A stretch of 64,000 nt of DNA from an uncultured virus (IMG/VR IMGVR_UViG_3300037189_010778) (IMGVR_UViG_3300037189_010778:1-64000), one strand, 5' to 3'; counted from the first letter of the stretch, positions 3,996 to 51,870 are shown. Notes: generated by a model not told the origin, from the sequence alone. Program-made: numbers and translations.

Positions 3996-4004
3996 GATTC
4001 GTCG

Positions 4005-13236: not shown

Positions 13237-13854
13237 TTATATTATAGGACAAGTACCATTAGCGCAAAGTATTTCAGCTAAAAGAGTATTTACTCTAGAG
13301 TATGGATATGTTTTTCTTCTCATTCCTTCATTTAATCCTTCTTTTACTGAGCGCATATATGAACCTGGATTAGATGGTGTGCTTACAAAATCCCAACATA
13401 ATAATTCAAAGTCATCTTGTACTTCCATTGTTCCTTCTCCTAGTGGTTTTAAACTACCCATTCCACGAGATGAAACACCTACTTGTACATTATTGTCAAT
13501 AAGTGCTTTTAATATATTACCAGAAACTGTGGGTAGTATTTCAATTTTACCTATCACTTTATCTCCATCCCACCATATGTTTCTTATAATATGAGATACA
13601 TTTTTTAATGAGATAATAGAGGAATCAGGATGATCTAATTCACCTGTTGCTCTATTTTCTTTAATACAATCCATGTATTTTTCTATCTCACGTTCCCATA
13701 ACTCCTTAGGATAATATCTACCATTGCCGTTTTTAACTTCAGCTGTAGCTAATATGCCCTCAACAAGTGGATTACCAGATGGAGCTTTAGCACCTTCATG
13801 AAGTTGTTCAGGTGATACTGAAAAGGGCATTGTTTCTATTAATACTTGTTTCAT
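13237..13854 (-). CDS. Prohead maturation protease (T4 gp21-like)
   Basis: N.NGRYYP; GELDHP; VSH; GVSSRGMGS; WDFVSTPS. Confidence 0.93.
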   Translation of the reverse strand: MKQVLIETMPFSVSPEQLHEGAKAPSGNPLVEGILATAEVKNGNGRYYPKELWEREIEKYMDCIKENRATGELDHPDSSIISLKNVSHIIRNIWWDGDKVIGKIEILPTVSGNILKALIDNNVQVGVSSRGMGSLKPLGEGTMEVQDDFELLCWDFVSTPSNPGSYMRSVKEGLNEGMRRKTYPYSRVNTLLAEILCANGTCPII

Positions 13855-13856: not shown

Positions 13857-14894
13857 TTATTCTATAGTGTTATCTTCTTCACCAATTACTTCTTCTTTAG
13901 ACGTTGATTTTTTATCTAATTTTGCTTTAAGACTTTCAAGTTTTTTTATCTCATTTTTGAGATCTTTCATTGTCTTAGGATTAGTAGCTCCCTTTTCAAT
14001 TTCTTCAAGTGTAGTTAATGCTTTAAGTTTTTTCTTGCGCTTCATTATTTCTTCACCAATTTTTCTAGCTTTAGCTTGATATTCAGCTATTTTGCCTACC
14101 TCATCAATTTCTTTCATGTTAAGTTCTTCTTTGATGAGTTGTTGAATAACTCTACGCAATTTAGTTTCTTGCAATCTAATTGTCTTTGGTTTACCAGGTA
14201 ATGGCATTTTCTTTACTCCTTTTGAGTTTTGTGGTTTTATTGGCATTTCTTTTACTTTTTTAGGCATTGTTGTTTTAGCTTCCTTATCACTAAGGGTATC
14301 TTTAGTATTGGATTTAATTTTTTCTACTCCAGCATCTGTATCACCATATCCACTAGCTTTCCATTTTCCTTTAGGTGCTTTAGGTTCACCTAATCCAGGA
14401 GCATCTTTAGTATATCCTATACCTTTAATACCAAATTGAGCTTCTATGGCGTAATAGTTTCTATCTTTACCTAGATTTTTAGCTACAATTTGTTTAATTT
14501 CGTCTGGTGTTTTATTTTTATTTTTTGGATCTTGCATTTCTGTGTAGAATCCATTTAAAAATGTTTGACCATATAAATTATCAATATTATCTGGGGTTTT
14601 GTAATCGTATGAATGGTCTTGTATGTCAGTTACTTCTTTAGATACTTTATTTTCTTTAGCTCTAACTGATTCATTAAATACAGAAAACCAATCTTTACGA
14701 CCCCCAGTAGATACCATTCCTAATCCAGCTTTACTTTCTGTAAGAATACTTTTATCTTTTAATATATTAACTGTTTCCTTAAATGAATTATAGTGGTTAA
14801 CATATTCAGGAAACAAGTAACGTGCTTGTTTTAGAAAGTGGTTTTTATTACCTTTACCTTCTTGTATTTGTTTGTATTGGTCTTGTAATGTCAT
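13857..14894 (-). CDS. Hypothetical head-associated protein
   Basis: 345 aa in head cluster; ILTE, RLQE, LIKEEL motifs. Confidence 0.55.
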   Translation of the reverse strand: MTLQDQYKQIQEGKGNKNHFLKQARYLFPEYVNHYNSFKETVNILKDKSILTESKAGLGMVSTGGRKDWFSVFNESVRAKENKVSKEVTDIQDHSYDYKTPDNIDNLYGQTFLNGFYTEMQDPKNKNKTPDEIKQIVAKNLGKDRNYYAIEAQFGIKGIGYTKDAPGLGEPKAPKGKWKASGYGDTDAGVEKIKSNTKDTLSDKEAKTTMPKKVKEMPIKPQNSKGVKKMPLPGKPKTIRLQETKLRRVIQQLIKEELNMKEIDEVGKIAEYQAKARKIGEEIMKRKKKLKALTTLEEIEKGATNPKTMKDLKNEIKKLESLKAKLDKKSTSKEEVIGEEDNTIE

Positions 14895-14908
14895 TTTATT
14901 TTTATTTA

Positions 14909-15196
14909 TTATGTGTATAAAATTACAGGGGCACTACCAACTGCTAAACTACATGATGTTATAAATAACGGTATCATTGTTCCAGCGGGTAATGTAATTG
15001 TAGTTGCTCCAGATTCGATAACTGTGTTAGTAGCTGACAAAGCAACTCCATACTTAAATGTTACTGTTGAGCCAGTTATATTAGTACTTCCATTCGCAGA
15101 ACCAGTTCCTAAACTTTGAATTCCAGCGAAAGAACCAGTTGTGGATTGAGTTCCAGTTAATATTACACCACCAAAATTTACAGGTATATTTGCCAT
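14909..15196 (-). CDS. Small hypothetical virion protein
   Basis: 95 aa, Gly/Ser/Thr rich. Confidence 0.55.
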   Translation of the reverse strand: MANIPVNFGGVILTGTQSTTGSFAGIQSLGTGSANGSTNITGSTVTFKYGVALSATNTVIESGATTITLPAGTMIPLFITSCSLAVGSAPVILYT

Positions 15197-15213
15197 TTTA
15201 TATTATATTTTGT

Positions 15214-15582
15214 TTATGATTTTTTATTATTTCCCCATAAATATTTAGTATCTACCCATTTAGCATTTTTAGCTAATTTTTTTGCGTTAACTGGTTTATA
15301 TCCAAATTTTTTAACGTACATGTTGTTAGTAACACCAGTAGAACCAGCTTTAGGACCTTTACCTAAAGATGCTCCAGGATTAGTTTCATCTAGGGGTTGA
15401 TGTGGGGCTAATTTATAAGCATATTTTATAGATTGAGCACCTTTAGCTTTTTTATTTGGATTAAAAGCAAATGGTGTAGCATATTGTGGACCGTTACCAG
15501 TACTAAAACCAGCACCACCACCAGTAGCACTTACTTCTTTAAGTTTTTTAAATATGCTATTTATAATTTTTTTCTTATCCAT
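15214..15582 (-). CDS. Hypothetical head-associated protein
   Basis: 122 aa; KLKE-VSATGGGAGFSTGNG resembles a capsid N-terminal segment. Confidence 0.6.
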   Translation of the reverse strand: MDKKKIINSIFKKLKEVSATGGGAGFSTGNGPQYATPFAFNPNKKAKGAQSIKYAYKLAPHQPLDETNPGASLGKGPKAGSTGVTNNMYVKKFGYKPVNAKKLAKNAKWVDTKYLWGNNKKS

Positions 15583-16432
15583 GTATTGAAGTAAGTTCTT
15601 CTAACAATTCATAATATTGTAATAAATTAACTAAATCGTCATTATCAATTTTATCTGTTTTACCTAATTCTACTAGTAAATTAGATACTTCATTAATTTT
15701 AATGTTAGTAGCTTTATCTGTTACTTTTTTATTTAGATTAGACAATGATAATTTAATTTCACTAATTTTAGTATTATAGAACTGACGTAATGTTGGAGTT
15801 GAATCCATTGAATTTATAAATTCTTTTAATACTAATTTTTGATTATCGTTTAAATCTGCGTATTTACCATTAAATTTCTCTAATAATACTCTGTATGTTA
15901 ATATACGGAGATCTTTATCGTATGATCTGAATTCTTCTAGTAAATTATCTTTAACTTGTTTTTCATCAATCGTTTTATTAGTTAACGCTTCAAGCAATGC
16001 TACTTTATTAGTTATAATTTGATCAGGATTAGATAAACTTTCACTATTATATATTTCAAGCAATGTATATAATGCTGCTTGTGCTTTATAGTTAGGTAAT
16101 TTAGTTTTAAAGAATTCATCCAAATTGTAATGTTTAGATATTTCTTTAATTAAATTATATTTTTGTCTTTTAAGTGTTTTTCTATTTAATTGCTTAGAAG
16201 ATTCAATAATAGTATTGATCACAATATCTGCCTTTGTCTCACTTAAATGTCTTTTACTCAATAAAGTTTCATAAAGTTTATATTCTTTACCTAATTCTGT
16301 TTTAACAAAGAATTTTTTAAGAATATGAGTAGCTTTAGATTCTTTACCTGAAAGACTGTCTGCTGTTATTCGTCTTACAAGTAATTCAAATAGAATACCT
16401 GTATTTTTGTATTTAGAATGTGATATTCGCAT
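15575..16432 (-). CDS. Hypothetical helical protein next to portal (possible prohead core component)
   Basis: 285 aa ORF with ATATTTATA motif upstream; function inferred from position only. Confidence 0.55.
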   Translation of the reverse strand: MRISHSKYKNTGILFELLVRRITADSLSGKESKATHILKKFFVKTELGKEYKLYETLLSKRHLSETKADIVINTIIESSKQLNRKTLKRQKYNLIKEISKHYNLDEFFKTKLPNYKAQAALYTLLEIYNSESLSNPDQIITNKVALLEALTNKTIDEKQVKDNLLEEFRSYDKDLRILTYRVLLEKFNGKYADLNDNQKLVLKEFINSMDSTPTLRQFYNTKISEIKLSLSNLNKKVTDKATNIKINEVSNLLVELGKTDKIDNDDLVNLLQYYELLEELTSIHG

Positions 16433-16465: not shown

Positions 16466-18361
16466 TTACTCCTTCAATTGTCTTTCATCCAACAACGTAA
16501 TGTTTTCTGTTTCTTTAGGGAACAGAGGTGTTTTACTTAAACTCTCAATTAACGTTTTATTCTTTTGATATACGGTTTGAGCTGTCTCAAGAGCTAATGG
16601 TGAACCACCTTTATAATTAGTTTTTCCGTATGTTTCTTGATCATCTACTTTCATATCAGTTTTACCTAATCTGTCTCTACCAAAAGCATTATATTGAGTG
16701 TTTATGTTAGATACTTTTTCAGATGGACGACCTAATTTTATATCTTCTCCATACCCATCAGGTACATTTTCAGGATTACTTCCCATTCTTCCAGCGCCAT
16801 ATAATGCAGCCAAGTCATGAGGTGTACCATATGATTTACCTGTTACTTTAGGATCATTTCCTTCTTCAGTAACTTGTTTAATTCTAAACTCACGTTTAGC
16901 ATCTTCAAGAGCTAAATCTCTATATTCTGAGTATTGGTCTTGAGATAAATGGAATATATTATCATAAATCCAATCTGTAGGTAATAGTTTAGATTCTTGG
17001 ATACTTCTAGCTAAATCTACTTTTTCTTTTAATAACGCAATACGTTCCTGATCATATATAATTGATGGTGTAGTAAGAGATAATTCAAAATTAGTTAATT
17101 GATCAGTTGTATATCCTTGTGTATATAAATGTACTAATGCTATTTTATACAGCTCAGATAATGTTATACGTTGAATCCTATCAATAGTACGAGCAAAACG
17201 AATATCTTCAGCAGCTAATGTGGCTTTACCTGTTAAATCTTTTTCATACCCCATAAACGCTTTAGGTACTTTTAACGCTGCGAATAACTTATCTCTTAGG
17301 TAAGTTACGTCTTCTATAGCAGTATATTGTAATCCAGGTAATGTTTCTATCTTAGTTGTTTGATCATTTCCACGTACAGGTATAAAGAAGTCTTCAAGTA
17401 AATTTTGCATGTTGTACTTTAAGTTATATTGACCTGTTTCTTGATCAATAAACGGAGTACGTTTCATCTTTGAAATAGTTTTTTGCATGAAGTTTTCTAC
17501 TTCATTAGGTGGAATAGAACCAACATTTAAGTAGTAAACACGTTTATCTGGAGAACGAGCAATACGATGTATTAACATCGCGTCTTCCATTAATGTGTAT
17601 TGTTTAAATAAACGACGAGCGGGTTCAATATAAGCTCTACCATAAGGTAAATAGTTATTGTCTGTTAAAAGACGAAAATGAGCCATTTCATAGTTATCAA
17701 AAAACACACCTGGAGTAGTGCTAGGATCCGTACCTGCTACACTATAATATCCTGATCCACCTGTATAAAATCCATCAGGTGAGTATTTAAAACGTACTGA
17801 AAATGGATTATCTTTGTCCCATCCCTCTTCTCTTTCAATATGATAAGCAGGAATAGGAATTACATTATATACTCCAAATTTTTCAGATATATCTAATTTA
17901 AGGAAAAAATCACCATATTTACACATTTGACGAATCCATGCCCATAAATTAAATTCAATATTTAAAATATCATAAAATAAGTTATATAATGTCTTTTGAA
18001 TATCTTCATTACTACTTCTTATTTGTAATACTTCACCCATATCATTTTTAAGGGTACATTCTTCAGCTACAATATCTAAAGCAGATGCAACAATAGCATC
18101 TGTATCCATAATATCATAATCAGAATAAATTTGAGGTCTTAAATATCTATAGTTTAAATTAAACTGAGCACCAAATAATGATGTTGCTCCAGGTGAATAT
18201 ATTCTATTATATCTATCCACAAGAGAATTAGTAGCAAATTCTCCTGATTGTTGGATAGTATTGGTATCCATTACTTTAATTTGGTTACCACCATCATTGC
18301 GTATAACTACATCTGTTGAAAATAAACGTTGTAGTCTTCTAAATATACTTGTATCAGCCAT
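16466..18361 (-). CDS. Portal protein (T4 gp20-like)
   Basis: LMEDAMLIHRIARSPDKRVYYLNVGSIP; LEDFFIPVRG; IETLPG; KLFAALKVP. Confidence 0.93.
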   Translation of the reverse strand: MADTSIFRRLQRLFSTDVVIRNDGGNQIKVMDTNTIQQSGEFATNSLVDRYNRIYSPGATSLFGAQFNLNYRYLRPQIYSDYDIMDTDAIVASALDIVAEECTLKNDMGEVLQIRSSNEDIQKTLYNLFYDILNIEFNLWAWIRQMCKYGDFFLKLDISEKFGVYNVIPIPAYHIEREEGWDKDNPFSVRFKYSPDGFYTGGSGYYSVAGTDPSTTPGVFFDNYEMAHFRLLTDNNYLPYGRAYIEPARRLFKQYTLMEDAMLIHRIARSPDKRVYYLNVGSIPPNEVENFMQKTISKMKRTPFIDQETGQYNLKYNMQNLLEDFFIPVRGNDQTTKIETLPGLQYTAIEDVTYLRDKLFAALKVPKAFMGYEKDLTGKATLAAEDIRFARTIDRIQRITLSELYKIALVHLYTQGYTTDQLTNFELSLTTPSIIYDQERIALLKEKVDLARSIQESKLLPTDWIYDNIFHLSQDQYSEYRDLALEDAKREFRIKQVTEEGNDPKVTGKSYGTPHDLAALYGAGRMGSNPENVPDGYGEDIKLGRPSEKVSNINTQYNAFGRDRLGKTDMKVDDQETYGKTNYKGGSPLALETAQTVYQKNKTLIESLSKTPLFPKETENITLLDERQLKE

Positions 18362-18367
18362 ATCTTT

Positions 18368-18399
18368 ATAATATATGTATAAATATTAAAAAAACCAAA
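18368..18399 (-). promoter_or_regulatory. Bacteroidota-type promoter candidate overlapping a late motif, upstream of portal
   Basis: TTTG-N20-TATATTAT, with ATATTTATA (18378-18386) inside the spacer. Confidence 0.45.
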
Positions 18400-18404
18400 T
18401 AGGT

Positions 18405-19979
18405 TTAATCTAAAAGCCAGCTAAAATTTTCTCTACCTCCTCTTCCATCAGACATAAAATAAGGATTATCCTGACCAGTAGCGAAATAAGCACCTTGGGT
18501 TGGACCTGATTTTCCTACGCCACTTAATGTTGCTCGAGTTAAATCTTGGCTTTGTTGTCTAAATTTAAGTGACGTATCTCTTAGATACATTCCTATTCCA
18601 AATGACATTACTAAATCATCATTATATCCAGATTGTGCTTCTGCTCTACCGTTTCTCCATATGAATACTTTCATTTCATCTAATAAACGTTTAGAACGTA
18701 TGGTTACAGATCTATCACCAACATATTCTCTAAATTTATTTACTACTAAAGGTCTTGTTCGTAAAGACATTGTAAATCCAGCTGTAACATTATCACTATT
18801 TTCATATTTGTTAAAATATGAGTCTACAGTTAATGTATCTGATTTAGGAGAAAAATATAAGTTTTTATAACCTCGCTCTAAAATAGCATCTAATGTAGAC
18901 CAACCAATATTAGAGTTTTCAACTACAAGTAAAGCTTGATTATATTCTGTAGCGGCTCCTACTAGAAAATATCCAAATTCTTTAGGAGGTAATTGACCCT
19001 TATATTCAGCTACTTGAGTATTAGTTGCTATATCTATAACATGAAACGCTGAGAAATCTCGGCCATCACCTCTAGCAACATCTGCTAATACCATATAATC
19101 TCTTTGATAATCGGGTTGTTCCCACACCCAATAATTTTGATCTGCGCCTCTACGTTCTGATGGGTCTTGTATAGTAGTATTAGATATAAATTCTAACCAT
19201 TCATTATAAAAAACAATATCACCAGATGTTGCAAAATCACAATCACATTCTTGAGCAGCTAATCTTGGATCACCTAATAATTCATCTTGTCTTTTTCTCC
19301 AACTTTCATCTCGTTCTGGATGTACATACCATGGTAATTTAATTGGTAAAAAGTCATTTTCAGCGTTTTCTGCTTTAGTCCAAGTTTGATGAAACCAATT
19401 ACCTGTACCATATGGGGTAGATAACACAATAGCTCCACCTCCGGTAGCTAAGGTTTGTTGAGCGGATGCCCATGTATCTTCAATATTTTCAATAAACGCA
19501 GCCTCATCTACTATAAGTAATGATACTGCTTCTGAACGTGCAGCGTCACTATTTGATGATTTTGCTTTAATTTGAGAACCATTTGATAATCTTATTGATA
19601 ACTTATTATTTTCTTCTGTAGGTACTTTTAACCAAGATGGTAAATTATCATACATAAATTTCACCTTAGTTACCATATTGCGAGCTGTTTCTTGTGTTTT
19701 GGATAAACACAAAACATTTTTATCTTTATGGAATAACATTAACCATAAAGAATATCCTGCTGCTAATGTAGATATACCTAACTGTCTAGATTTAAGTACT
19801 ATAGAATATGGATTATCTTTCCATAATGTCAATACTTTACCTTGAAACGGATATAAATTAAATATTACACGACCCCTCTGTGGATGCTGTATATGACAAT
19901 ATTTTTGCATAAAGTGGGCAGGATCAGCTGCACATTTTATATATTCCTCTCTTATAATCTGTTTAATATCTGTACTCAT
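18405..19979 (-). CDS. terL: Terminase large subunit (T4 gp17-like)
   Basis: LYPFQ; KSRQLGIST Walker A; LLIVDEAAF Walker B; STPYG; ADVARGDGRDFS; DDLVMS. Confidence 0.95.
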   Translation of the reverse strand: MSTDIKQIIREEYIKCAADPAHFMQKYCHIQHPQRGRVIFNLYPFQGKVLTLWKDNPYSIVLKSRQLGISTLAAGYSLWLMLFHKDKNVLCLSKTQETARNMVTKVKFMYDNLPSWLKVPTEENNKLSIRLSNGSQIKAKSSNSDAARSEAVSLLIVDEAAFIENIEDTWASAQQTLATGGGAIVLSTPYGTGNWFHQTWTKAENAENDFLPIKLPWYVHPERDESWRKRQDELLGDPRLAAQECDCDFATSGDIVFYNEWLEFISNTTIQDPSERRGADQNYWVWEQPDYQRDYMVLADVARGDGRDFSAFHVIDIATNTQVAEYKGQLPPKEFGYFLVGAATEYNQALLVVENSNIGWSTLDAILERGYKNLYFSPKSDTLTVDSYFNKYENSDNVTAGFTMSLRTRPLVVNKFREYVGDRSVTIRSKRLLDEMKVFIWRNGRAEAQSGYNDDLVMSFGIGMYLRDTSLKFRQQSQDLTRATLSGVGKSGPTQGAYFATGQDNPYFMSDGRGGRENFSWLLD

Positions 19980-20049: not shown

Positions 20050-20847
20050 TTATTTTAATAAACTTATTAATCTATCTTGTGCTTTTTCTAATTCTTTTTT
20101 AGCTTTAGTTTTTTCTTTAAGTGCGTCTTTTAATTTTTCTTTTTCTTCTCCTTCAGCTTGTTTATATTTTCCTACTATTTCTTTCATTTCTTTTTCTATA
20201 GCAGTTAATTCATCTTCTAACTTTTGAAGTCTAACTGAACTTTTATTTGTTTTTGCTGCTGTTTGAGCTCGTTCATCTTTTTCCTTTTCATTACTTTTTT
20301 CTTTAGATGTTGATGTTTTAGGAGTTGATGCTTTAGGTTCTTTAGGTTCTTTAGGTGTTGATGTTTTAGGTTCTTTAGGTAATTTTTCTCTACCAGCTTC
20401 AAGATATGCTGCAAAATCTCCATCTTCTTTTTCAAGAGCAGCTCGAGTAGCTGGGTTATTCCATGTAGCTGTATCTTTATTTGTTTGTTTAGCTAATACT
20501 TTAATATCTACTTCATTTTCTTTTTCTAAAGCGGATAATAATTGATCTAAGGCATTTTTACCATATTTTTCACCTCTATTTTCTTTATACTTATCTAATG
20601 CTTTTTTAAAGCCTTCTTTATCTTTTACTTTATAAAAAGATGCCATTTCATTAAGTGAAATTTCAGCTACACCAATTGATGTTTGTGTTTTTCTAGCTTG
20701 AGATATAGCGTCTTTAACGGTGTCTAAACCAGTTCGTTCAGTTCTAGCTATACTTGGTGCTTCTGATGGGTCTGTTTTAGAGCCAACCATAGTTAATTCT
20801 GAAATTATCATTTCTTTGATAAGTTGTTTAAGTTGAGATTTTTTCAT
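20050..20847 (-). CDS. Hypothetical protein with MKKSQLKQLIKEMIISE leader
   Basis: 265 aa; Lys/Glu-rich; PKEPK repeats. Confidence 0.7.
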   Translation of the reverse strand: MKKSQLKQLIKEMIISELTMVGSKTDPSEAPSIARTERTGLDTVKDAISQARKTQTSIGVAEISLNEMASFYKVKDKEGFKKALDKYKENRGEKYGKNALDQLLSALEKENEVDIKVLAKQTNKDTATWNNPATRAALEKEDGDFAAYLEAGREKLPKEPKTSTPKEPKEPKASTPKTSTSKEKSNEKEKDERAQTAAKTNKSSVRLQKLEDELTAIEKEMKEIVGKYKQAEGEEKEKLKDALKEKTKAKKELEKAQDRLISLLK

Positions 20848-20877: not shown

Positions 20878-22152
20878 TTAATCTAAATAATCATCTACTA
20901 ATTTTTTCATAACTCTTGCTACATTTGAATTAACATCATATCTATCTCGAAAATAAGATACGTCTTGATCTATATCATTGTTGTGGCTATATTGTTCCCC
21001 ATCTTCAATTGTAAAATTTCTTACAAAATAATTAAATCCCCAATTGTTTTCCAAATCATCATGGATTTTATTCCACTCTTCTTTAGAATATTTTTTAAAA
21101 TCATCATAATATATGTCATTAGGATCTATTTCATCATAAGAATGAAATAAAGCCCATTCCCATATTTCATAATCCGAATTATATAAATCTGGGTAGTCTA
21201 TGAATTTGGCTAGATAGTTTATTAATTTACCTTCATTTTCATAACTTACATCTAATTTTAATAAAGAAGCAATACCAGGATCATTAACTCGCATTTCATT
21301 TACAGATCGATTAGAATAATTAATTATATATTTTTTAATATCATTTAAATTTAATATAATCATAACCCAAACAAATGTTCCTCCACCTTCACTGTCTGTA
21401 TAAAACTCTAATATTGGAATTTCATATTGTTTAAGTTTAGATATAAAAGATCTTAATCCATTTATGTTAAAATCAGGATTCTCAGATTCAATAGCATCCA
21501 TAATATTTTCATCACTATATCCAGCCATTATTTCAGGTTCATTATATATAGGAATAGTGAACATTAATTCTTTATCTTCATCCAATATATTACCATAATA
21601 TTCAACGTTATTTTTCTTATCAATGTATATTATTTCATCTTCATTTTCTTTTTTAAAAATAAGAGAAGAAGGTTCATTAACTCGCATTTCATTAATATCA
21701 GATTTTTGATCTTTGATCTTTTTTAAAAAATCTTCAACAGCATACTGATAAAGTTTTTGATCGTCCTTTACTTCTTTAAGTGCTTTTATATACTTGGGAT
21801 CATTTATATTTATAATATTTTTATTATTAACTGCGTGCTTTAACATGAGTTCATGACCTAAACGATTAGCATACCAGTTAAAATCTCTTTCATCATCAAT
21901 AAGATCACCTAATGTACCTTTATAACCAATTTGTTTAGCGATATCAAATGCTAAAACATTTGCCATTTCACCATCATAAAATTCACTCCAAAAATCCTCA
22001 GGATCGTCGGGTATTATATAATCATCCCAATATTCATCTAAGATATCTTTATAAAGATTATAATTAGTCCAACGATATTTATTTGGTTCATTAACTCGCA
22101 TTTCTGTTATAGGGATACCAGCCAATTTTTGCATGCGATAAAATTCACTCAT
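20878..22152 (-). CDS. Putative polyprotein: RMQKLAGI leader plus three EMRVNxP-headed acidic domains
   Basis: 424 aa; motifs at 22084-22104, 21670-21690, 21277-21297. Confidence 0.7.
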   Translation of the reverse strand: MSEFYRMQKLAGIPITEMRVNEPNKYRWTNYNLYKDILDEYWDDYIIPDDPEDFWSEFYDGEMANVLAFDIAKQIGYKGTLGDLIDDERDFNWYANRLGHELMLKHAVNNKNIININDPKYIKALKEVKDDQKLYQYAVEDFLKKIKDQKSDINEMRVNEPSSLIFKKENEDEIIYIDKKNNVEYYGNILDEDKELMFTIPIYNEPEIMAGYSDENIMDAIESENPDFNINGLRSFISKLKQYEIPILEFYTDSEGGGTFVWVMIILNLNDIKKYIINYSNRSVNEMRVNDPGIASLLKLDVSYENEGKLINYLAKFIDYPDLYNSDYEIWEWALFHSYDEIDPNDIYYDDFKKYSKEEWNKIHDDLENNWGFNYFVRNFTIEDGEQYSHNNDIDQDVSYFRDRYDVNSNVARVMKKLVDDYLD

Positions 22153-22174
22153 GAATGTTAATTTAATATAAATA

Positions 22175-22699
22175 TTATGAAAATAATACTTCTTTAATTG
22201 TTTGAATACGTTCTTTAGTAGTACCTTTAATTTCTACTAAACGTTTAGGTGGATATTCTTTCAACATTTCTTTAATAGTAAAATCAATTTTATCACGATA
22301 ATTACTGTCTATAGTACGTATACCATTATCTTCAATATTTACACCTTCAGGTGAAACATAAAATATAACATCATAATCATTACGTAGATGCATCATCAAA
22401 TTAACAAATTTCTCTTTAACATTCCATTCAATTGAATTAGCACTTAACGTAAATGCGCATACATCATATATAGTTCTATCTGTAATAATATTTTCTTTCA
22501 TTAATTCAACAGAACGTTCAGCAGCAAATACTATTTGTCCTTTTAATGTTGAATCTGTATTTAATGTTATGCCTTGATCTCGTAAATATTTACTACGTTC
22601 AGTAGCAAATTCATAATCTTCAAATTCAGGTAATTCCATTAATGCTTTAACTAAAGTAGTTTTACCACACGATACTGTTCCACAAAAACCTATTTTCAT
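22175..22699 (-). CDS. P-loop nucleotide kinase-like protein (NadR/AAA_28-like)
   Basis: MKIGFCGTVSCGKTTL; IITDRTIYD; YDVIFY; EDNGIR. Confidence 0.75.
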   Translation of the reverse strand: MKIGFCGTVSCGKTTLVKALMELPEFEDYEFATERSKYLRDQGITLNTDSTLKGQIVFAAERSVELMKENIITDRTIYDVCAFTLSANSIEWNVKEKFVNLMMHLRNDYDVIFYVSPEGVNIEDNGIRTIDSNYRDKIDFTIKEMLKEYPPKRLVEIKGTTKERIQTIKEVLFS

Positions 22700-22710
22700 A
22701 TTATTTTATT

Positions 22711-22956
22711 TTATGCTCTTGTTCCTGATTGTTTACCTGCTGCTGTTTTATGAAATGGTACTCCTTCACCATCTTTTTTAATATTTTCCCACTGTTCTTT
22801 AGTTTTTTTAATACCCCAAACATAATACTCTGCTTTACGTTTATCACCTTGTGGTATTAAGGCAGGACCATCATAGTTATGAGTTACAGCCTTACCTTCA
22901 ATGATAGTGTAATATACAATAGTACCGTCTGCTTGTTTTAAATGTTTTGTCTGCAT
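22711..22956 (-). CDS. Hypothetical protein
   Basis: 81 aa; HNYDGPALI...EYYVWG motif. Confidence 0.65.
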   Translation of the reverse strand: MQTKHLKQADGTIVYYTIIEGKAVTHNYDGPALIPQGDKRKAEYYVWGIKKTKEQWENIKKDGEGVPFHKTAAGKQSGTRA

Positions 22957-22974
22957 ATTCTTTTTATTTTTTAT

Positions 22975-23006
22975 TAAATATACTAAAGAATTTTTAAAAA
23001 ACCAAA
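22975..23006 (-). promoter_or_regulatory. Bacteroidota-type -33/-7 promoter
   Basis: TTTG-N20-TATATTTA. Confidence 0.65.
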
Positions 23007-23068
23007 TTTTTTAATTTAAAAATTTTCTATAAAATCTGGGTATTCTTCGTTAGGATCTTGATACATAA

Positions 23069-24352
23069 TTAGTTTTGTAATAAATATTCAGCAACATATA
23101 TTCCGTGTGCTCCTGATACAGTAATTCCACGAGCGCTTAATGCGTCTCCAACAAAATGTACATTTTGATATTTAGTAAGACTTAAATCCTCATAATTTAC
23201 AAGAGGTTCGGGACTTAAATATTTGCACTCGGGTATATATACGCCCCAATCATCACCAAATTCGAATACTTTATTCATATCATTGATGAAATTTTCAATA
23301 TAAGTAAAATATTTACCCATTACTTCTCTTACCGATGTTAAATCATATATTTTTGTTGTGTTGATTAATTCATGTTCTGACGTTTTAGATGGATTTCTTT
23401 TTGGACTGTAATATAAACCAGTACCACTAATTTGTAATTTACTTACTACATCTCTACTCCATTTAAACGGATCTTCAATACCTTTAATTTCCATCAATAT
23501 GCCAAAATTAGTCATATCATTTCTAAATTCCTCACCTTTCTTAGCATGACCATTGTATGTAATATCACCATATGTTTCTTCTACAGCAACATAAGCGGCA
23601 TTATTGTTAGTACAGAATGAACGTAAAGACACGTTATCAAATTTCTGATATAATTTGAAATCATATGATACATCAATTAGTTTCTGAAAATATTTTTGTG
23701 GTGCCTCGTAACGTACTCCAATTTGTACTGATTTTGGTTCAGTTGGTAATTTATATCTGTCTGATAATGATTGGGCAAAATCAATACCTGATTTGCCTAC
23801 TGCAAAAATAAGTTTATCATACGTAAAATTTTTATTATCAGTATGAATTGTATTTTGATAAAATAAAATATTTTTAACTTCTGTATTCCATTCAAATTGT
23901 ACACCTTTATCAACTAAATACTGATACCAATTTTTAGCGATCTCGTGCAAGAAATTGGATCCAATGTGCCATACAGGAAATAAACGTAATCCAAAGTATG
24001 GTTTAATAAAGTCTGGTTCAGTTACAGGATCAGAACAAAATATTTCTTCTGGTTTAGGATGGAAGCGTCTAAAGTTATTAATAACTTGATCCATTAATTC
24101 CATTGCTTTATCCTCACCACAATATTTAGATAACTGACCTCCTATTGCTGTATGGTATGTGAGTTTACCATCACTCCATGCGCCCGCACCGGCAAAACCA
24201 CACATTACTTCTTCAGGTTGTCTTTCATATGGGTCCCTTCCCTTATCAATAATAGTAATCAACTCACCTGGGTAGCCGTTATCTACTAATTTAGTCGCCG
24301 CGTTTATACCGGCCACTCCGCTTCCTACAATTACAATTTTTTTCTTTTTCAT
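23069..24352 (-). CDS. FAD-dependent oxidoreductase
   Basis: IVIVGSGVAG Rossmann motif; GAGAWSDGKL; IGVRYE; RSFC; VGDA. Confidence 0.85.
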   Translation of the reverse strand: MKKKKIVIVGSGVAGINAATKLVDNGYPGELITIIDKGRDPYERQPEEVMCGFAGAGAWSDGKLTYHTAIGGQLSKYCGEDKAMELMDQVINNFRRFHPKPEEIFCSDPVTEPDFIKPYFGLRLFPVWHIGSNFLHEIAKNWYQYLVDKGVQFEWNTEVKNILFYQNTIHTDNKNFTYDKLIFAVGKSGIDFAQSLSDRYKLPTEPKSVQIGVRYEAPQKYFQKLIDVSYDFKLYQKFDNVSLRSFCTNNNAAYVAVEETYGDITYNGHAKKGEEFRNDMTNFGILMEIKGIEDPFKWSRDVVSKLQISGTGLYYSPKRNPSKTSEHELINTTKIYDLTSVREVMGKYFTYIENFINDMNKVFEFGDDWGVYIPECKYLSPEPLVNYEDLSLTKYQNVHFVGDALSARGITVSGAHGIYVAEYLLQN

Positions 24353-24357
24353 ATTAT

Positions 24358-24389
24358 TAAATATACTAAATTTTATTTAAAAAGCCAAA
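24358..24389 (-). promoter_or_regulatory. Bacteroidota-type -33/-7 promoter
   Basis: TTTG-N20-TATATTTA. Confidence 0.65.
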
Positions 24390-24390
24390 T

Positions 24391-24425
24391 AAAAAGTGGC
24401 GTCTCCTTTTTTTAGGTGACGCCAC
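24391..24425 (-). terminator. Intrinsic terminator
   Basis: Minus strand GTGGCGTCACC...GGAGACGCCAC-TTTTT. Confidence 0.75.
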
Positions 24426-24492
24426 AACTGTCATATTTTATTTATTAAAGCAACCGGCTATGAATCGGTCTGTATGTTGTATTATTTTTATT

Positions 24493-24936
24493 TTAAAAAC
24501 CTAATTGCTTACCATATTTTTTTAACATGCTATCATAGTATCTAATTTTTTTATTATAAAAATTCGCATCATCTAAAAGACCCATATCTTGACCATACTG
24601 GAGGTAAAATTGAGCTGCTAAAGCATTGCAATACAAATTAAAAGTTTCATTACTCATTACAAGATTATCAAAATTACCTTTAAAACCAGCTCGTTTAGCA
24701 ATATCAAATGCTAGATCATTTACTAAACTAAAATCATCAAGTTCTAACATAAATTCTTCAGGAGAATTAATCCCATATGCTTCAAATAAATCTTCTAACA
24801 CAGATTCATATCCTTCATAATCTTGCCAATCTGGGGAAAGTGAGTCTATAGCGTTGAATTTTTGATTGTTTTTAGACGCGCTGATAGCTTTATTAATCTC
24901 TTCGCGAATTAATTTTCTAAGTTCAAATTTTTTCAT
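24493..24936 (-). CDS. Hypothetical protein with MKKFELRKLIREEI leader; homologue of first domain of 20878-22152
   Basis: 147 aa; LAFDIAK..G.KG shared. Confidence 0.7.
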   Translation of the reverse strand: MKKFELRKLIREEINKAISASKNNQKFNAIDSLSPDWQDYEGYESVLEDLFEAYGINSPEEFMLELDDFSLVNDLAFDIAKRAGFKGNFDNLVMSNETFNLYCNALAAQFYLQYGQDMGLLDDANFYNKKIRYYDSMLKKYGKQLGF

Positions 24937-25000: not shown

Positions 25001-25276
25001 TTACTTACCAAACTTTTTTTTACCATACTGTAGTAACATTCGGTGAGCTTTTGAGTAACTATCTTTTGAAGCTTTTCCCATAGCACTACCTTCTATTTTT
25101 TCAGCCACAGTATCAACTAAATCTGAGTATGTTATTTCATCTTTAAGTGATTCCATGTCTGTGACTCCATGGGTCTTTAATATTTTTTCAAGGTCTGAAG
25201 ACGATAATTCTTGATTTTCATTAATTACTTTACGAATTTCTTCTTTAATGAGTTGTCTTAATTCAAATCTTTTCAT
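25001..25276 (-). CDS. Hypothetical protein with MKRFELRQLIKEEIRKVINE leader
   Basis: 91 aa ORF. Confidence 0.7.
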   Translation of the reverse strand: MKRFELRQLIKEEIRKVINENQELSSSDLEKILKTHGVTDMESLKDEITYSDLVDTVAEKIEGSAMGKASKDSYSKAHRMLLQYGKKKFGK

Positions 25277-28290: not shown

Positions 28291-28300
28291 TTTTTTTGTT

Positions 28301-28332
28301 TAAATATACTAAATTAATCTAAGAAAGCCAAA
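28301..28332 (-). promoter_or_regulatory. Bacteroidota-type -33/-7 promoter
   Basis: TTTG-N20-TATATTTA. Confidence 0.65.
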
Positions 28333-29399: not shown

Positions 29400-29414
29400 A
29401 AATTTAATTTTTTA

Positions 29415-30596: not shown

Positions 30597-30613
30597 ATTT
30601 TTTTTATTTTTAC

Positions 30614-30915: not shown

Positions 30916-31572
30916 TTAGTAGTATTGCCAGTAAATATCGTTAGGACCTAATTTTATTTTATATAAGCGTGGGTTTGTAGGATCACCGTAAAGCAATTCG
31001 GGATCTAATGATATGTATGCTCTATTATCATCACCATCATCTAGCATTATATCATCACCACTGTTCCAAAAACCATATTGTTCTATATCAGCTCTATACC
31101 ATCCGTTTAATACATTACTCCAAGATGGTTCATCATCTCTTTTCCATTCAGGTGTATTCCAAAGTGCGTCTACTAAGATTTTTTTAAATGATGGATTTAA
31201 CACCATATAATTAGCTAGTTGATCATTATTTTTGAATTTAGGTATAGGTTTATTAACCCGCATTTCATTTACAGGTTGTTTATCTAGTATTACTCCATAA
31301 TTCAATAGAAATTCTATAAATGAATCAACATTTCCTTCCCAATAATCTTTTTCTTTGATAAATTTATATGCTTCACGTTTTCTTAATGTTTTATTATCAC
31401 GTGACGCCACTTTAAACAGATAGATAGCATCAGATGTATCTTCATCAAAATCATACCTAATATCATCCCAGTCTTGATCTAACCATTTTTCAAATTCAGG
31501 ATTAAGATAATATATTTTATCATCAGGAAAATTAATCCGCATCTCATTTAATACATTTATTAATTTTATCAT
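30916..31572 (-). CDS. Two-domain protein, MIKLINVLNE leader, two EMR(V/I)NxP tags
   Basis: Motifs at 31525-31545 and 31246-31266. Confidence 0.7.
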   Translation of the reverse strand: MIKLINVLNEMRINFPDDKIYYLNPEFEKWLDQDWDDIRYDFDEDTSDAIYLFKVASRDNKTLRKREAYKFIKEKDYWEGNVDSFIEFLLNYGVILDKQPVNEMRVNKPIPKFKNNDQLANYMVLNPSFKKILVDALWNTPEWKRDDEPSWSNVLNGWYRADIEQYGFWNSGDDIMLDDGDDNRAYISLDPELLYGDPTNPRLYKIKLGPNDIYWQYY

Positions 31573-31584
31573 GATCGTTGATAT

Positions 31585-32238
31585 TTAATAGTTATGACAG
31601 TATAAAGTGTAATCGCCTTCTCCTATGTAAGATATTTCAATTTTTTTATAGCAAACGTTAGTAGTTATAGTAGTACCGCTTTTATCTCCAAAAATTTCAA
31701 AAAGTATTTCATTTGGTTTAAAACGAGTATAATATGATAATATATATTTTTTAGCTTCTTTTCCGTCTTCACTTAATTGATCTTCATCATTGTAAAAACT
31801 CCATTCATTTATTAAAAAATCATCTAATGAATCATAACCAAAACTTTTATAAAGTTCTTGTAGTGATGAATTACTTGTTATATAAGCTAACAAATATGGT
31901 TTTTTATCTATAAAATAATCCAAAATCTGTTCTTTAGAAAGAGATATAGGTTTATTAACTCGCATTTCACTTAAAGCTTCAACAGGTTCATACCAGTTTG
32001 TACAGTATTCATCAGCGGCATATGGTATCTTGTTAGTGCCAGCCCATTCAGCATAATATGTGTTATTACATACTTGATCTTCTTTATTCCACCATTTACA
32101 ATTAGCACAGCATGAACCTCCTTTAGGTACTTTCATTCCAGCTTTATGACTATCTGGTAGTTCCATAGGGCCAGGACCACCATATTCTTCTTTTAATTGT
32201 TGTTGTATTAGGTAATTAGTTATGTTGAATTGTTTCAT
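31585..32238 (-). CDS. Cys-rich domain fused to EMRVNKP-headed domain
   Basis: CCANC...C...C cluster; motif at 31948-31968. Confidence 0.7.
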   Translation of the reverse strand: MKQFNITNYLIQQQLKEEYGGPGPMELPDSHKAGMKVPKGGSCCANCKWWNKEDQVCNNTYYAEWAGTNKIPYAADEYCTNWYEPVEALSEMRVNKPISLSKEQILDYFIDKKPYLLAYITSNSSLQELYKSFGYDSLDDFLINEWSFYNDEDQLSEDGKEAKKYILSYYTRFKPNEILFEIFGDKSGTTITTNVCYKKIEISYIGEGDYTLYCHNY

Positions 32239-32242
32239 ATTT

Positions 32243-35200
32243 TTATGATTCTGTTAAATCGTTCATGTTATATATTCTGTTATAATCTTCTTGTTTTTCA
32301 GGCATACCTGATGAAAGATATACATTGTTTCCTAACATAGAATCACCAGATATGTTATCTTTTATGACGTTACCTTCTGCATCCATTATAACCCAAGATT
32401 CATAGTACATATTATCCTTATTAGATTTAGGAAGTAAAACATACTTTTTACCTTTATCATTAATAATAAACGGTACAGCGAATAATAAAGTACTATATTT
32501 TGTATTTTGATTGAATTTTTCAACTAAATTAATTATTGTTTTTCGTTCAGAAGTTGATAATTTACGCCATTGTTCTTCATCTATAGGGACTGGGTTTACT
32601 TCTTGTGTAGGCATTGCGTTTCTATTTTCTAAATCTTCACTACTTATATTAGTTCCTTCTTCATAAATCCATGGTTCAAATAATTTAATATATAATTCAT
32701 ATAATTGTTTAAGTTTTGGGTCACTAATATAATCAATAGCTTCTGGTGGGAGGAAATCAAGTTCTTTAGCCATTTTATTAACGTATGTTTTAGCAGCGTC
32801 TTCACCAAAATATTTTTTAATATATTCAAAAGATAAACTATCTTTTTCAAAAATATCTAAATATTGTTGTTTTTCTTCATCACTTAAATATTCAATAAAA
32901 GGTAAAGGTACAATGGTAGTTGATGTTTTACCTTGTTTATAGTCATCTAAAGCTCTAGTAAATCTAAATTTAGCATAACTTCGTGATAAAGCTTTACTAT
33001 CTTTCAAATCGTTATATGTAGGTTTATATCCAGTACCAGTTCGTAAAGCTAAATTTTTTAATTCTGGATCTAGGATTTTAAACATAGCACTATTAAATGC
33101 ATTTGGTTGATCTGCTCTATTAGCGATATATATTCTTTTTTGATTTCTGTTTAAATCTTTAAACATATTGAAATCTAAAATTTTATCTCTTACTAAAGCT
33201 TGATCAGTTTCTTCTTCAGATGGAGGGACATATTTAAATACATCTTTAAGATTTTTTATTTTTTCCCAAGCTTGTTTTCCACTTTCACCTCCATTTTTTA
33301 TCATAAATTGTCCCACTTCATCCCAAGACATTCCTTTATCATTTCCAGTAGCTTCATGATTTGAACCCCATTGATTTACAGTATCTGTCACTCCAAATTT
33401 ACCATTTTGGAAAGCATGTATTACAAAAAAGTGATACCAATTTATAAAATTTTCTCTATTTGATGGATTACCTTTTATATCCGCATTTTGAGTAGAATCT
33501 GCTACAAAATAAAAACTTCTAAATGCTCCACCTCGACCAAAACGATATGTGTAATATTGATTTGATGCTTCTTCTTTTCTACCTATACAAAATCCGTAAG
33601 AATAAATTTTATTATCTTCTCCTTTATATTTAAAAGCATAATTTAATTTAATACAACCACCGTAATCACTTCCTTCATAAATTTTAAGCCCATTATTGTT
33701 ATATACTACTGGTACTCCTTTTATATCAATAAGTTCAGCATCTTGAATTGTACTAAAATCTTTTGATGATTTTTCAGCTTTTCCACCATAAGCGTCTAAA
33801 ACAGTTTCTAAATCTTTCCAAGTATAATTTAAAATATCTTGTGGGTTTAAAATTTTATTAGTTTTAGGATCAGGTTCAGTAAATTTCTTAGGTACTATTA
33901 TTCCTCCAGCTTCTCCTTTAAGTCCTGCTTGTATTTTTTTAGGGAGATTTTGTTTAATTTGATCAAATCTATTTAACTTTTCTTTAATATCATCTTTTGA
34001 CAGAGTATTTTTCATTTCTTTTTGAAATTTTTCTGTCATTTGATTAATAATCTTTTCAGAGTACTCATTTAATTGAGTTCTTTTTGATTCTCTTAAATCT
34101 TTAAATTCTTTTGTTTTATATACTTTATCTATTTGTATTTCTCTATCATCAAATACTATTCTAACATTACCACCATAATGTGTATTTCCATCTATTCCAG
34201 CTCTTAATAAGAATAAAGAGGTATCTTTAGGAGGATTTTTAGATTTTTTTCCATAAAAATTTTCTATAGTATGATAAACTTTACTACCTATCATAGATGT
34301 ATTTATATTAACATCCACATTATCTTTTTGGGCTTGTTTATTAATTTTATCAACTTGATATTGAGGAATAGGACCATCCCAATTTAAATAATCAGGAGTT
34401 TTATTAGGAAATAATGTAACTTTATATATATAATGCATTGATTCCTGTTCTACTTCTAGATCTTTAATAATTTCTATAAATTTACGGTAGTTATCTAATA
34501 CTTCTTCTTTACTTTCAAAATCAGGTTCTTCTTCAAGAATAGAAATCATGTCTTCTGCATATTCTATATATTCTTTAGCTGTTTTTAGTCCTTGCGGTAA
34601 TCCAAAAAATACTTCATTTTCATATTCTAAACCTAATTCTTCAGCAGTTTTACCTTGAAATAATGTTTTAAACCTATGGGGTGTATTTATAGATAAAGCA
34701 TATCCTTTAACCATTTCTGGATTTTTTCCGAAATATAAACCCCATCCAATTACTTGTATTCCTGTTCCCCCACCCATTCCTTCACTGTGAAATTGTCTAA
34801 AATAATTTGGTGAACCATGCCATGCCTCTTCATTTTCATTTAATGGTTTAGTTTTATCTATTTTAGAAAATGTTTTTTTAATTTCTTTATTAAATGATTC
34901 AAGAAATATTTCAGCAAAAGTTTGTTTATGCATATTTTCTTTTTTTATCGGTTTTAGTTTTTTTATTAAATTTTCTCGTGCCCAAAATCTTTGACCAGTT
35001 TTATCATCATCTATTAAATACCAAGGAATACCATCTTTTTCAGTGTAATATCTGTTATAATCTTTAGATAAGGTTAATGTTTCATTACCTAATGATACTT
35101 TTTCTCCTGGGTAGAATTTTTTAGGCTCATTAACTCGCATTTCAACTAATGGAGCGTATTTTCTAATTAATGACATAGCTACCGACCTAGGTTCCCAAGA

Positions 35201-51361: not shown

Positions 51362-51362
51362 G

Positions 51363-51869: not shown

Positions 51870-51870
51870 A

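What the first reader, a model, noticed from the sequence alone, without database searches (positions are those of the whole stretch)
21780..24936. Same cargo domain attached to two different leaders
Seen: domain 1 of the 424-aa protein (PEDFWSEFYDGEMANVLAFDIAKQIGYKGTLGDLIDDERDFNWYANRL) aligns without gaps to the 147-aa protein (PEEFMLELDDFSLVNDLAFDIAKRAGFKGNFDNLVMSNETFNLYCNAL). One uses RMQKLAGI plus EMRVNEP; the other uses MKKFELRKLIREEI. Inference: leaders are interchangeable and cargo domains are shuffled among them.
Basis: partly seen in the sequence, partly recalled or inferred. Interest (0 to 1): 0.7.

Follow-up and report, generated by a model that had tools for sequence, protein, structure and literature searches.

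The report
Swappable clip-off leaders on phage proteins
An uncultured T4-like water phage puts a few short, interchangeable N-terminal leaders on many unrelated proteins; one leader copies the tail of the phage's own head-scaffold protein, so the leaders most likely load changeable cargo into the virus head, as phage T4 does.

Summary
Residues 28-107 of the 424-aa protein and 37-115 of the 147-aa protein align at 36% identity (E=1e-14) behind different leaders.

The window is the first 64 kb of a 75.8-kb contig of a T4-like phage with terminase, gp20 portal, S77 prohead protease, acidic scaffold and gp23 capsid protein. Its nearest isolate is Flavobacterium phage immuto.

The shared domain is a small family: 23 representatives at E<=1e-3. 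Of 21 homologues, 14 carry a leader, and the leaders fall into four classes.

The leader MKKQILSEEFKRMQKLAGI heads 116 protein clusters. Their cargo falls into 57 unrelated groups, and 100 of 102 have a hydrophobic-x-Glu site just after the leader.

The same RMQKLAGI peptide ends the scaffold protein in this phage, and a one- or two-residue variant ends those of immuto and G002. It is also the scaffold tail in 63 of 66 C-terminal hits in viral contigs.

Best reading (about 0.6): these are T4-style capsid-targeting propeptides that the head protease removes, and one class copies the scaffold's tail. No experiment supports this yet, and cargo function is unknown. It is a new variant of a known kind.

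The parts
20878..22152 (-). 424-aa three-module protein. It has a class C leader (RMQKLAGI, 22114-22137) and three EMRVN(E/D)P junctions at 22084-22104, 21670-21690 and 21277-21297.
21832..22071 (-). Module 1 of the 424-aa protein (residues 28-107): the shared all-alpha cargo domain.
   Evidence: (E=1e-14)
24493..24936 (-). 147-aa protein: class A leader MKKFELRKLIREEI (24895-24936) followed by the same cargo domain (residues 37-115 = 24592-24828).
   Evidence: AF2 model, mean pLDDT 85.8: leader helix at 3-19, disordered 21-34, helical domain at 40-145.
25001..25276 (-). 91-aa protein with class A leader MKRFELRQLIKEEI.
   Evidence: 40.1 bits
25337..25678 (-). 113-aa protein with class C leader MKKQILSEEFKRMQKLAGINEMQVKSP.
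20050..20847 (-). 265-aa protein with class A leader MKKSQLKQLIKEMI, directly upstream of the terminase gene.
   Evidence: 33.5 bits
11966..13069 (-). Acidic scaffold-like protein (367 aa, pI 4.29) between protease and capsid gene. It ends ...QPIIEVNSAFERMQKLAGIKK (motif at 11975-11998).
13237..13854 (-). Prohead protease of the T4 gp21 family (Peptidase_S77).
   Evidence: E=9.6e-29; phrog_207, 1.6e-58
10149..11930 (-). Major capsid protein (Gp23 family). The predicted maturation site is ...QLVTE|TSNVGGG.
   Evidence: One search aligns the N-terminal part with the part of T4 gp23 around its LTE|AEIGG site. L56, V57 and E59 are invariant in 35 relatives.
16466..19979 (-). T4-type portal (16466-18361) and large terminase (18405-19979).
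13857..16432 (-). Four ORFs of 345, 95, 122 and 285 aa in the position of the T4 prohead core genes gp67/gp68. The 345-aa protein holds LRRVIQQLIKEEL internally, which is only a weak match.
   Evidence: 3.2 bits
37175..38638 (-). 487-aa protein with an internal class C tag plus junction, KRMQKLAGIPVKEMRINIP (residues 336-353).
30916..37172 (-). Four proteins with MIKLI(D/N)(I/V)LNEMR(V/I)N (class B) leaders and/or internal EMRVN.P junctions: 218 aa (30916-31572), 217 aa (31585-32238), 1278 aa (32243-36079; junctions at about residues 13, 199 and 313) and 242 aa (36444-37172).
38646..38915 (-). 89-aa protein with class A leader MKKSDLKKIIREEI.
   Evidence: 38.1 bits
45245..45745 (-). 166-aa protein with a variant class C leader MNNEFQRMLKLAGIDSELKIN.
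50852..52317 (-). Three tandem paralogues (56-65% identical), each starting with the class B leader MIKL(L/I)(D/N)ILKEM(R/K)VN.

Best explanation
The leaders are capsid-targeting propeptides of the kind known from phage T4 internal proteins. Each is a short amphipathic helix that takes the attached protein into the assembling prohead core. It ends in a hydrophobic-x-Glu site, where the phage's gp21-type (S77) protease cuts it off and leaves the cargo free inside the head, to leave with the DNA. One leader class (..EEFKRMQKLAGI..) is a copy of the conserved C-terminal tail of the phage's own scaffold protein, so it probably uses the scaffold's own docking contact. Because only the tag is needed, cargo domains are swapped freely at the cleavage site. 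That is why the same domain sits behind two leaders here. The 424-aa protein would be a three-part polyprotein cut at each ..NE|MRVN.P junction. What is shown: the motifs, their positions, their spread, the link to the scaffold tail, and the presence of the protease. What is inferred: targeting, cleavage, ejection and cargo function.
For: (1) T4-type head module. The window holds an S77 protease, gp20 portal, gp23 capsid protein, terminase and acidic scaffold, in the same order as in Flavobacterium phage immuto. The capsid protein's N-terminal part aligns with the part of T4 gp23 around its known site, and a V-T-E site lies there.

(2) Literature. In passages of PMC9026906, gp21 cuts after L/I-X-E, T4 internal proteins carry 10-19-residue N-terminal propeptides that target them to the core, and the cargo is diverse. 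In passages of PMC3012670, T-even internal proteins share only the targeting sequence. The T4 IPII and IPIII N-termini MKTYQEFIAE|A were read from the genome.

(3) Conserved leader, hypervariable cargo. 116 clusters share a nearly invariant 19-residue leader. Among the 102 with the strict motif, the cargo forms 57 groups, and 100 of 102 have a hydrophobic-x-E site within 9 residues after the motif. In viral contigs, 15 of 15 N-terminal or internal copies have such a site 2-5 residues after the motif, against 0.15 per 10-residue window in their own cargo.

(4) The same peptide ends the scaffold. Of 81 occurrences in 80 viral loci, 66 are C-terminal. Of those 66 loci, 63 also hold a capsid-protein N-terminus and 58 match the window's scaffold body. 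The tail is invariant in 60 aligned scaffolds, which were found by searching for this motif. Immuto's scaffold ends ..SRWQKLAGIIK and G002's ends ..SRWQKIAGIK.

(5) The tag is cut-separable at either end. In leaders the site follows the motif. In tails a site precedes it in 57 of 65, although the background there is 0.58. C-terminal tags also occur on non-scaffold proteins (L019, L021, L078 and P0012).

(6) Position in the head module. In the complete genome G002, a 137-aa protein with this leader lies between portal and protease, where T4 has its core genes.

(7) Association with the protease. S77 is found in 6 of 6 leader-bearing viral records that are at least 49% complete, and in 2 of 9 that are at most 35% complete.

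(8) Selection acts on the peptide. Copies of the motif use different synonymous codons.

(9) Structure. The AF2 model shows the leader as a separate helix joined by a disordered linker to a confident globular domain.

(10) Class A leaders are N-terminal in 82 of 86 occurrences in viral contigs, and immuto has them too.
Against: No virion proteomics, cleavage data or binding data exist for this phage or for immuto, so targeting and cutting are inferred from sequence alone.

Hydrophobic-x-Glu is a short motif in a Glu-, Ile- and Leu-rich proteome. For the scaffold tails, the upstream site is barely above background (57/65 against 0.58).

Most cargo modules here are strongly acidic (pI 4.2-4.7), whereas the review describes T-even CTS-bearing proteins as basic.

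Many genomes with the scaffold tail hold no leader of that type: G006, G007, G008 and G009 each hold the motif once.

The leaders show no detectable homology to the T4 targeting sequence. The class A profile did not list IPII or IPIII.

The association with S77 has no matched control set.

In class A, the first site (LIRE|E) lies inside the predicted helix.
Confidence: 0.62

Rival explanations
1. The tagged proteins do enter the prohead, but as accessory core or scaffold material (filling, size control, protease regulation). They would be degraded and expelled like the scaffold, not delivered to the host as cargo.
For: Most modules are as acidic as the scaffold (pI 4.2-4.7 against 4.29). The tag is the scaffold's own tail. 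In G002 a tagged protein lies among the core genes.
Against: The 147-aa cargo is a confidently folded globular domain, unlike a degradable scaffold. Fifty-seven unrelated cargo groups behind one leader fit a fast-changing host-directed set better than a structural role. The T4 precedent is ejected proteins (PMC9026906, passages).
Confidence: 0.15
2. The leaders are docking helices for a cytoplasmic hub unrelated to the capsid, for example a chaperone or the neighbouring metallopeptidase-VWA / AAA+ pair (27097-30644). That pair, rather than the head protease, would process the ..NEMRVN.P junctions.
For: A DUF2201 putative metallopeptidase with a VWA domain, and an AAA_5-like ATPase, lie between two clusters of leader genes. 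The extended junction EMRVN.P is longer than a gp21-type site needs to be.
Against: This does not explain why the same peptide is the conserved end of the scaffold next to the capsid gene in 63 of 66 loci. It also does not explain why leader-bearing records of adequate completeness all carry S77. The exact junction ILNEMRVN is confined to this one phage in IMG/VR, while the minimal hydrophobic-x-E site is general.
Confidence: 0.12
3. The leaders have no function of their own. They would be recombination scars or recently copied gene starts that spread with shuffled genes.
For: Arg in EMR is mostly CGA/CGG in an AT-rich genome, which points to common descent of the copies. Leader-only similarities link otherwise unrelated genes.
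Against: Synonymous codons differ between copies while the peptide stays the same. The peptide is nearly invariant across 116 clusters with 57 cargo groups. It occurs at N-termini, at C-termini and internally. It is shared between phages whose capsid proteins are only 52.6% identical.
Confidence: 0.05

Closest known systems
Capsid targeting sequence (CTS) of phage T4 internal proteins IPI, IPII, IPIII, removed by the gp21 prohead protease
   Same: A short N-terminal propeptide sits on otherwise unrelated, fast-changing proteins and ends in L/I-x-E. The phage has a gp21-family protease and a T4-type core, scaffold and capsid (PMC9026906 and PMC3012670, passages).
   Different: There is no detectable sequence homology to MKTYQEFIAE. 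There are several leader classes rather than one. One class is a copy of the scaffold's C-terminal tail. The tags also occur at C-termini and between modules of long proteins. The cargo is mostly acidic. Nothing here has been tested experimentally.
Propeptide-bearing ejection and inner-body proteins of giant phages phiKZ and SPN3US, cut by gp21-like proteases
   Same: Many head proteins are cut after Glu by a diverged gp21 homologue (PMC9026906, passages; PMC7411985 and PMC10052503, search listing and abstracts only).
   Different: Those phages use other motifs and much longer propeptides, and no scaffold-tail copy is reported in the passages I read.
Scaffold C-terminal tail that docks on the capsid protein and is cut off at maturation (herpesvirus scaffold and protease precursors; P22-type scaffold C-termini)
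   Same: A conserved extreme C-terminal peptide on the scaffold with a protease site shortly upstream, and a second protein that shares the tail to get inside. This comparison is recalled general knowledge. PMC9546572 (passages) states only that capsid-protein N-termini contact scaffolds in P22, T7, SPP1 and 80alpha.
   Different: Here the tail is moved to the N-terminus of many unrelated proteins. Its binding partner is unknown.
Encapsulin cargo-loading peptides
   Same: A short terminal peptide addresses diverse cargo to the inside of an HK97-fold shell (recalled).
   Different: This is a tailed phage with portal, terminase and protease. The tag is predicted to be cut off. The motifs are unrelated.

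Membership tests
T4-type capsid-targeting propeptide system | A short N-terminal peptide (10-19 residues in T4) shared by otherwise unrelated proteins of one phage | tested here: met
   Leader-only similarities link unrelated ORFs in the contig. One leader sits on 57 cargo groups.
T4-type capsid-targeting propeptide system | The peptide ends in the prohead protease's site (L/I-x-E in T4) | tested here: met
   100 of 102 and 15 of 15 have a hydrophobic-x-E site directly after the RMQKLAGI leader. Class A leaders have I-(K/R)-E at residues 10-12. This is sequence evidence only; cleavage has not been shown.
T4-type capsid-targeting propeptide system | The phage encodes a gp21-family protease and a T4-type scaffold and capsid that are processed at the same kind of site | tested here: met
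   Peptidase_S77 at E=9.6e-29, Gp23 at 4.3e-75 and Portal_T4 at 2.3e-68. The capsid N-terminal part aligns with the part of T4 gp23 around its cleavage site, and a V-T-E site lies there.
T4-type capsid-targeting propeptide system | Tagged proteins are found in proheads or virions with the tag removed | not testable with these tools
   Needs mass spectrometry of particles. No such data were found for immuto: the listing shows no virion proteome paper.
T4-type capsid-targeting propeptide system | Sequence homology of the tag to the T4 CTS (common descent) | tested here: not met
   The class A profile, searched against ORFs of two T4 regions that include ipII and ipIII, did not list them. The system therefore works like a CTS but is not shown to descend from it.
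Scaffold tail docking peptide | A conserved peptide at the extreme C-terminus of the scaffold protein encoded beside the capsid gene | tested here: met
   66 of 81 occurrences are C-terminal, and 63 of those 66 loci hold a capsid N-terminus. R-M-Q-K-L-A-G-I is invariant in 60 tails, which were selected by that motif. Variants occur in immuto and G002.
Scaffold tail docking peptide | The tail binds the capsid protein or another prohead component | not testable with these tools
   Needs binding assays or a procapsid structure.
Encapsulin cargo system | An HK97-fold shell without portal, terminase or tail; the cargo peptide is not removed | tested here: not met
   Portal, terminase, protease and tail genes are present.
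Any described protein family for the shared cargo domain | A match to Pfam, PHROGs or a solved fold | tested here: inconclusive
   No Pfam or PHROGs hit. Foldseek found nothing at E<=1e-3 in PDB or BFVD. The best VIA match has Z 6.6, within the noise for helical bundles.

The most novel reading that the evidence does not exclude
The leaders form a modular address code copied from the scaffold's own docking tail. Any domain fused to the tag, at either end or in a chain, is loaded into the prohead, cut free at a hydrophobic-x-Glu site and injected with the DNA. The dozens of mostly unknown cargo families (acidic in this phage), including polyproteins matured inside the capsid, would then be a large and fast-evolving arsenal of injected host-takeover or anti-defence effectors. 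The phage clade that carries them is very abundant in natural waters: at least 8000 capsid-protein relatives at E<=1e-30.
Probability: 0.4. Interest if true: 0.8.

Novelty: new variant of a known kind. Interest (0 to 1): 0.58.

Why it matters
How the T4 targeting sequence recognises the prohead core is still unclear. A leader that is a copy of the scaffold's conserved tail points to a concrete and testable contact. The tag also gives a sequence handle for listing proteins that abundant aquatic Bacteroidota-type phages may inject: 57 cargo groups behind one leader alone, none with a known domain. If the tags do load cargo, they could be used to pack chosen proteins into these capsids, as the T4 tag is used. 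I found none of the motifs printed in the held literature. Earlier notes of this same scan reached the same reading in related genomes, so the idea is not new within the scan.

Tried and rejected
Complex prediction of capsid protein (alignment A4) with the last 60 residues of the scaffold (A3) gave no verdict (score 0.01, below the mark). It counts neither for nor against binding.

Fold searches of the cargo model found nothing usable: Foldseek PDB and BFVD gave nothing at E<=1e-3, and the best VIA wide match has Z 6.6.

The 424-aa protein folded alone gave mean pLDDT 40.5, too poor to use. I note only that the junction motifs fall in coil, lowest-confidence blocks.

tblastn of both proteins against 50,697 phage records found no match. 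The word-based search found only the protein itself and one 93% copy. The ESM Atlas look-up of the 113-aa protein returned only unnamed viral clusters scoring below 0.8.

The tree of the cargo family has 12 of 20 inner branches unresolved. It needs 5 label changes against a minimum of 3, which is no better than shuffles. One row, P0022 (56 aa), was dropped as too short.

By eye, K(S/D)xLKQxIxE looks alike, but a profile of seven class A leaders did not list any scaffold N-terminus among 779 ORFs. I rejected that idea here.

The large terminase starts ..IKQIIREEY. This is a weak chance match (6.6 bits) and not a leader.

A DNA repeat or promoter overlapping the gene starts is rejected, because the copies differ at synonymous sites and the motif also occurs internally and at C-termini.

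A 2A-like ribosome-skipping peptide at ..NEMRVNEP is rejected from recalled knowledge: it lacks the NPGP core and that mechanism is eukaryotic.

The exact ILNEMRVN string occurs only in this phage in IMG/VR (2 stretches, both in the contig behind L001). The long junction is therefore lineage-specific.

Literature searches for the motif strings, for immuto and for scaffold-tail cargo targeting found no prior description. Papers in subscription journals are not in the library.


Full report
**What is there.** The window is the first 64 kb of a 75.8-kb viral contig. It is about 29% G+C, and almost all genes lie on the minus strand. The same phage also occurs as a 160.9-kb contig (L001).

The window holds a T4-type head module:
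- large terminase, 18405-19979
- gp20-type portal, 16466-18361
- Peptidase_S77 prohead protease, 13237-13854 (E=9.6e-29)
- a 367-aa acidic scaffold-like protein, 11966-13069
- gp23-type capsid protein, 10149-11930 (E=4.3e-75)

The nearest isolate is Flavobacterium phage vB_FspM_immuto, whose capsid protein is 52.6% identical. Its head module has the same gene order. The capsid family is very large in metagenomes: all 8000 scored candidates reach E<=1e-30.

**The observation.** The 424-aa and 147-aa ORFs exist as described. Residues 28-107 of the first align with residues 37-115 of the second at 36% identity and E=1e-14. The leaders differ: MSEFYRMQKLAGIPITEMRVNEP against MKKFELRKLIREEI.

A profile of the two domains finds 23 representatives at E<=1e-3 in 1.84 billion proteins, with a conserved core. 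With that alignment, AlphaFold2 gives a confident model of the 147-aa protein (mean pLDDT 85.8). The leader forms a helix at residues 3-19, residues 21-34 are disordered, and residues 40-145 form an all-helical domain. That domain matches no Pfam or PHROGs family and no solved fold above noise.

**Leaders are interchangeable.** I read 21 homologues:
- 10 carry the RMQKLAGI-type leader or a variant
- 2 carry an NF.LK.(F/W)L.ENKL type
- 1 carries a MIKLINILKE type
- 1 carries an MKLRQYIRE type and also ends in ..FLRMQKIAGLLK
- 7 have no leader, and several of these start inside the domain

P0005 and P0013 carry different leaders, yet they are 65% identical starting exactly at (L/I)xE|VATPNWE. 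The exchange point is therefore the end of the leader. The family tree is too poorly resolved to count swaps.

Within the contig, the same leaders head many unrelated ORFs:
- Class A (MKK..L...I(K/R)E): four clear cases
- Class B (MIKLI.ILNEMRVN): six
- Class C (RMQKLAGI): three N-terminal, counting one variant, and one internal
- The junction EMR(V/I)N.P occurs 12 times, including three times in the 424-aa protein and three times in a 1278-aa protein

**One leader, many cargoes.** I searched with the first 40 residues of the 113-aa protein. This returned 116 clusters of 62-198 aa, and none has a Pfam domain. In 102 of them the strict motif is N-terminal, and 13 more differ by one residue. In 100 of the 102, a hydrophobic-x-Glu site follows within 9 residues. 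Their cargo falls into 57 BLAST groups.

Class A (L(K/R)Q.IKEEI) gave at least 130 stretches in viral contigs. In the 80 loci read, 82 of 86 occurrences have a Met within 8 residues upstream, and the genes often lie in tandem arrays. Immuto carries class A and class C leaders too.

**The link to the scaffold.** The window's scaffold ends ..QPIIEVNSAFERMQKLAGIKK. In the 80 loci read there were 81 occurrences: 66 C-terminal, 13 N-terminal and 2 other.

Of the 66 C-terminal loci, 63 also hold a capsid-protein N-terminus and 58 match the window's scaffold body. The remaining three (L019, L021, L078) are C-terminal tags on other proteins. Immuto's scaffold ends ..SRWQKLAGIIK and G002's ends ..SRWQKIAGIK. 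Class C leaders are therefore copies of the scaffold's conserved tail, flanking residues included (..(E/A)F.RMQKLAGI).

In the complete genome G002, the one protein with this leader lies between portal and protease, where T4 has its core genes.

**Why a T4-like targeting and clipping system is the best reading.** Passages I read in PMC9026906 say three things. gp21 cuts after L/I-X-E. T4 internal proteins carry 10-19-residue N-terminal propeptides that give affinity for the core and are then removed. Related phages carry varied proteins with such tags. PMC3012670 (passages) says T-even internal proteins share only the targeting sequence. I read the T4 IPII and IPIII N-termini MKTYQEFIAE|A from the genome.

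Here the protease family is present. The capsid protein's N-terminal part aligns with the part of T4 gp23 around its known site, and a V-T-E site lies there. Each leader class ends in such a site.

The site follows the motif in leaders and precedes it in tails. This fits an anchor that is severed from its passenger. It fits a protease exosite less well, because an exosite would need a fixed geometry relative to the cut.

All 6 leader-bearing viral records that are at least 49% complete encode S77. So do 2 of the 9 that are at most 35% complete. No matched control was run for this comparison.

Copies of the motifs differ at synonymous sites, so selection acts on the peptide.

**What speaks against it, or is open.**
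- Nothing has been measured.
- The site motif is short and common. For the tails, the upstream site is near background (57/65 against 0.58).
- Cargo modules are mostly acidic (pI 4.2-4.7), unlike the basic T-even proteins.
- Several genomes with the tail carry no such leader: G006, G007, G008 and G009 each hold the motif once.
- The tags are not homologous to the T4 tag.
- What the tail binds is unknown.
- Cargo function is unknown.

**Rivals.** There are three: accessory core material rather than delivered cargo; docking onto a cytoplasmic hub, with processing by the neighbouring metallopeptidase-VWA / AAA+ pair; and functionless recombination scars. The reasons for ranking them lower are given in their entries.

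**Comparison and novelty.** The system works like the T4 capsid-targeting sequence, and it meets the three sequence-level criteria that I could test. Packaging cannot be tested here, and homology to the T4 tag is not met. It differs from T4 in four ways. It has several leader classes. One class is copied from the scaffold tail. Tags occur at C-termini and between modules of polyprotein-like genes. The cargo set is very large.

I found none of the motifs printed in the library. Eight earlier notes of this scan give the same reading for related genomes. Those are leads, not independent evidence. One of their claims, a leader copying the scaffold's N-terminus, was not supported here.

Noticed in passing
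window 15214-15582 (-) and 10149-11930 (-): After ..KLKE, the 122-aa protein in the prohead-core position reads VSATGGGAGFSTGNGPQY. This resembles the capsid protein just after its predicted cut..LVTE|TSNVGGGSGFGAFSTGNGAEW. It may be a mimic of the capsid protein's N-arm.
   Followed up: no
window 27097-30644 (-): A DUF2201 putative metallopeptidase with a VWA-like domain (397 aa), an unknown 361-aa protein and an AAA_5-like ATPase (409 aa) lie between two clusters of leader-bearing genes. PHROGs labels the first one 'HNH endonuclease', which does not fit its Pfam domains.
   Followed up: no
P0020: A 312-aa lipoprotein-like protein with six repeats of GKSAYELAKENGY.GTL..WL.SLKG matches the conserved core (LAFDIAKRAGFKG..DLI) of the cargo domain at E=5e-6. 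The core may be a common helix-turn unit.
   Followed up: no
L003 (immuto gp076, gp077, gp069), P0004, P0005; L128 (T4 gp22): A fourth leader type, NF(D/N)L(K/R).FL(V/T)ENKL, heads immuto proteins encoded just before the terminase and beside the protease. T4 scaffold gp22 contains KEWLAENKLAV, and T4 gp67 contains IDLIKEEKI. These are short likenesses between leaders and core proteins and may be chance.
   Followed up: partly
window 10149-11930 (-): The capsid protein aligns to T4 gp23 only at residues 22-132 and 332-572. The roughly 200 residues in between are rich in Ser, Thr, Ala and Gly, and look like an inserted surface domain.
   Followed up: no
window, 12 EMR(V/I)N.P sites: The Arg of the junction is encoded by CGA or CGG in 10 of 12 copies, although the genome is about 29% G+C. 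The Arg of RMQKLAGI is CGC in 3 of 4 copies. This suggests the copies descend from one another.
   Followed up: no
window 50852-52317 (-): Three tandem paralogues (56-65% identical) carry class B leaders just upstream of the tail genes. One has sub-threshold leucine-rich-repeat hits.
   Followed up: no
window 3-5744 (-): The 1331-aa protein (open at the window end, with a sub-threshold YadA-head repeat hit) and the 579-aa protein share repeated segments of about 60-85 residues at 68-72% identity. They are probably tail fibres with exchanged modules.
   Followed up: no
window 43423-44118 (-): The 231-aa protein holds a class A-like motif internally, beginning at a Met (..KMQQLRKLVKEEIINVLNEEE, residues 139-154, 19.5 bits). 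This could be an internal start or a second tagged module.
   Followed up: no
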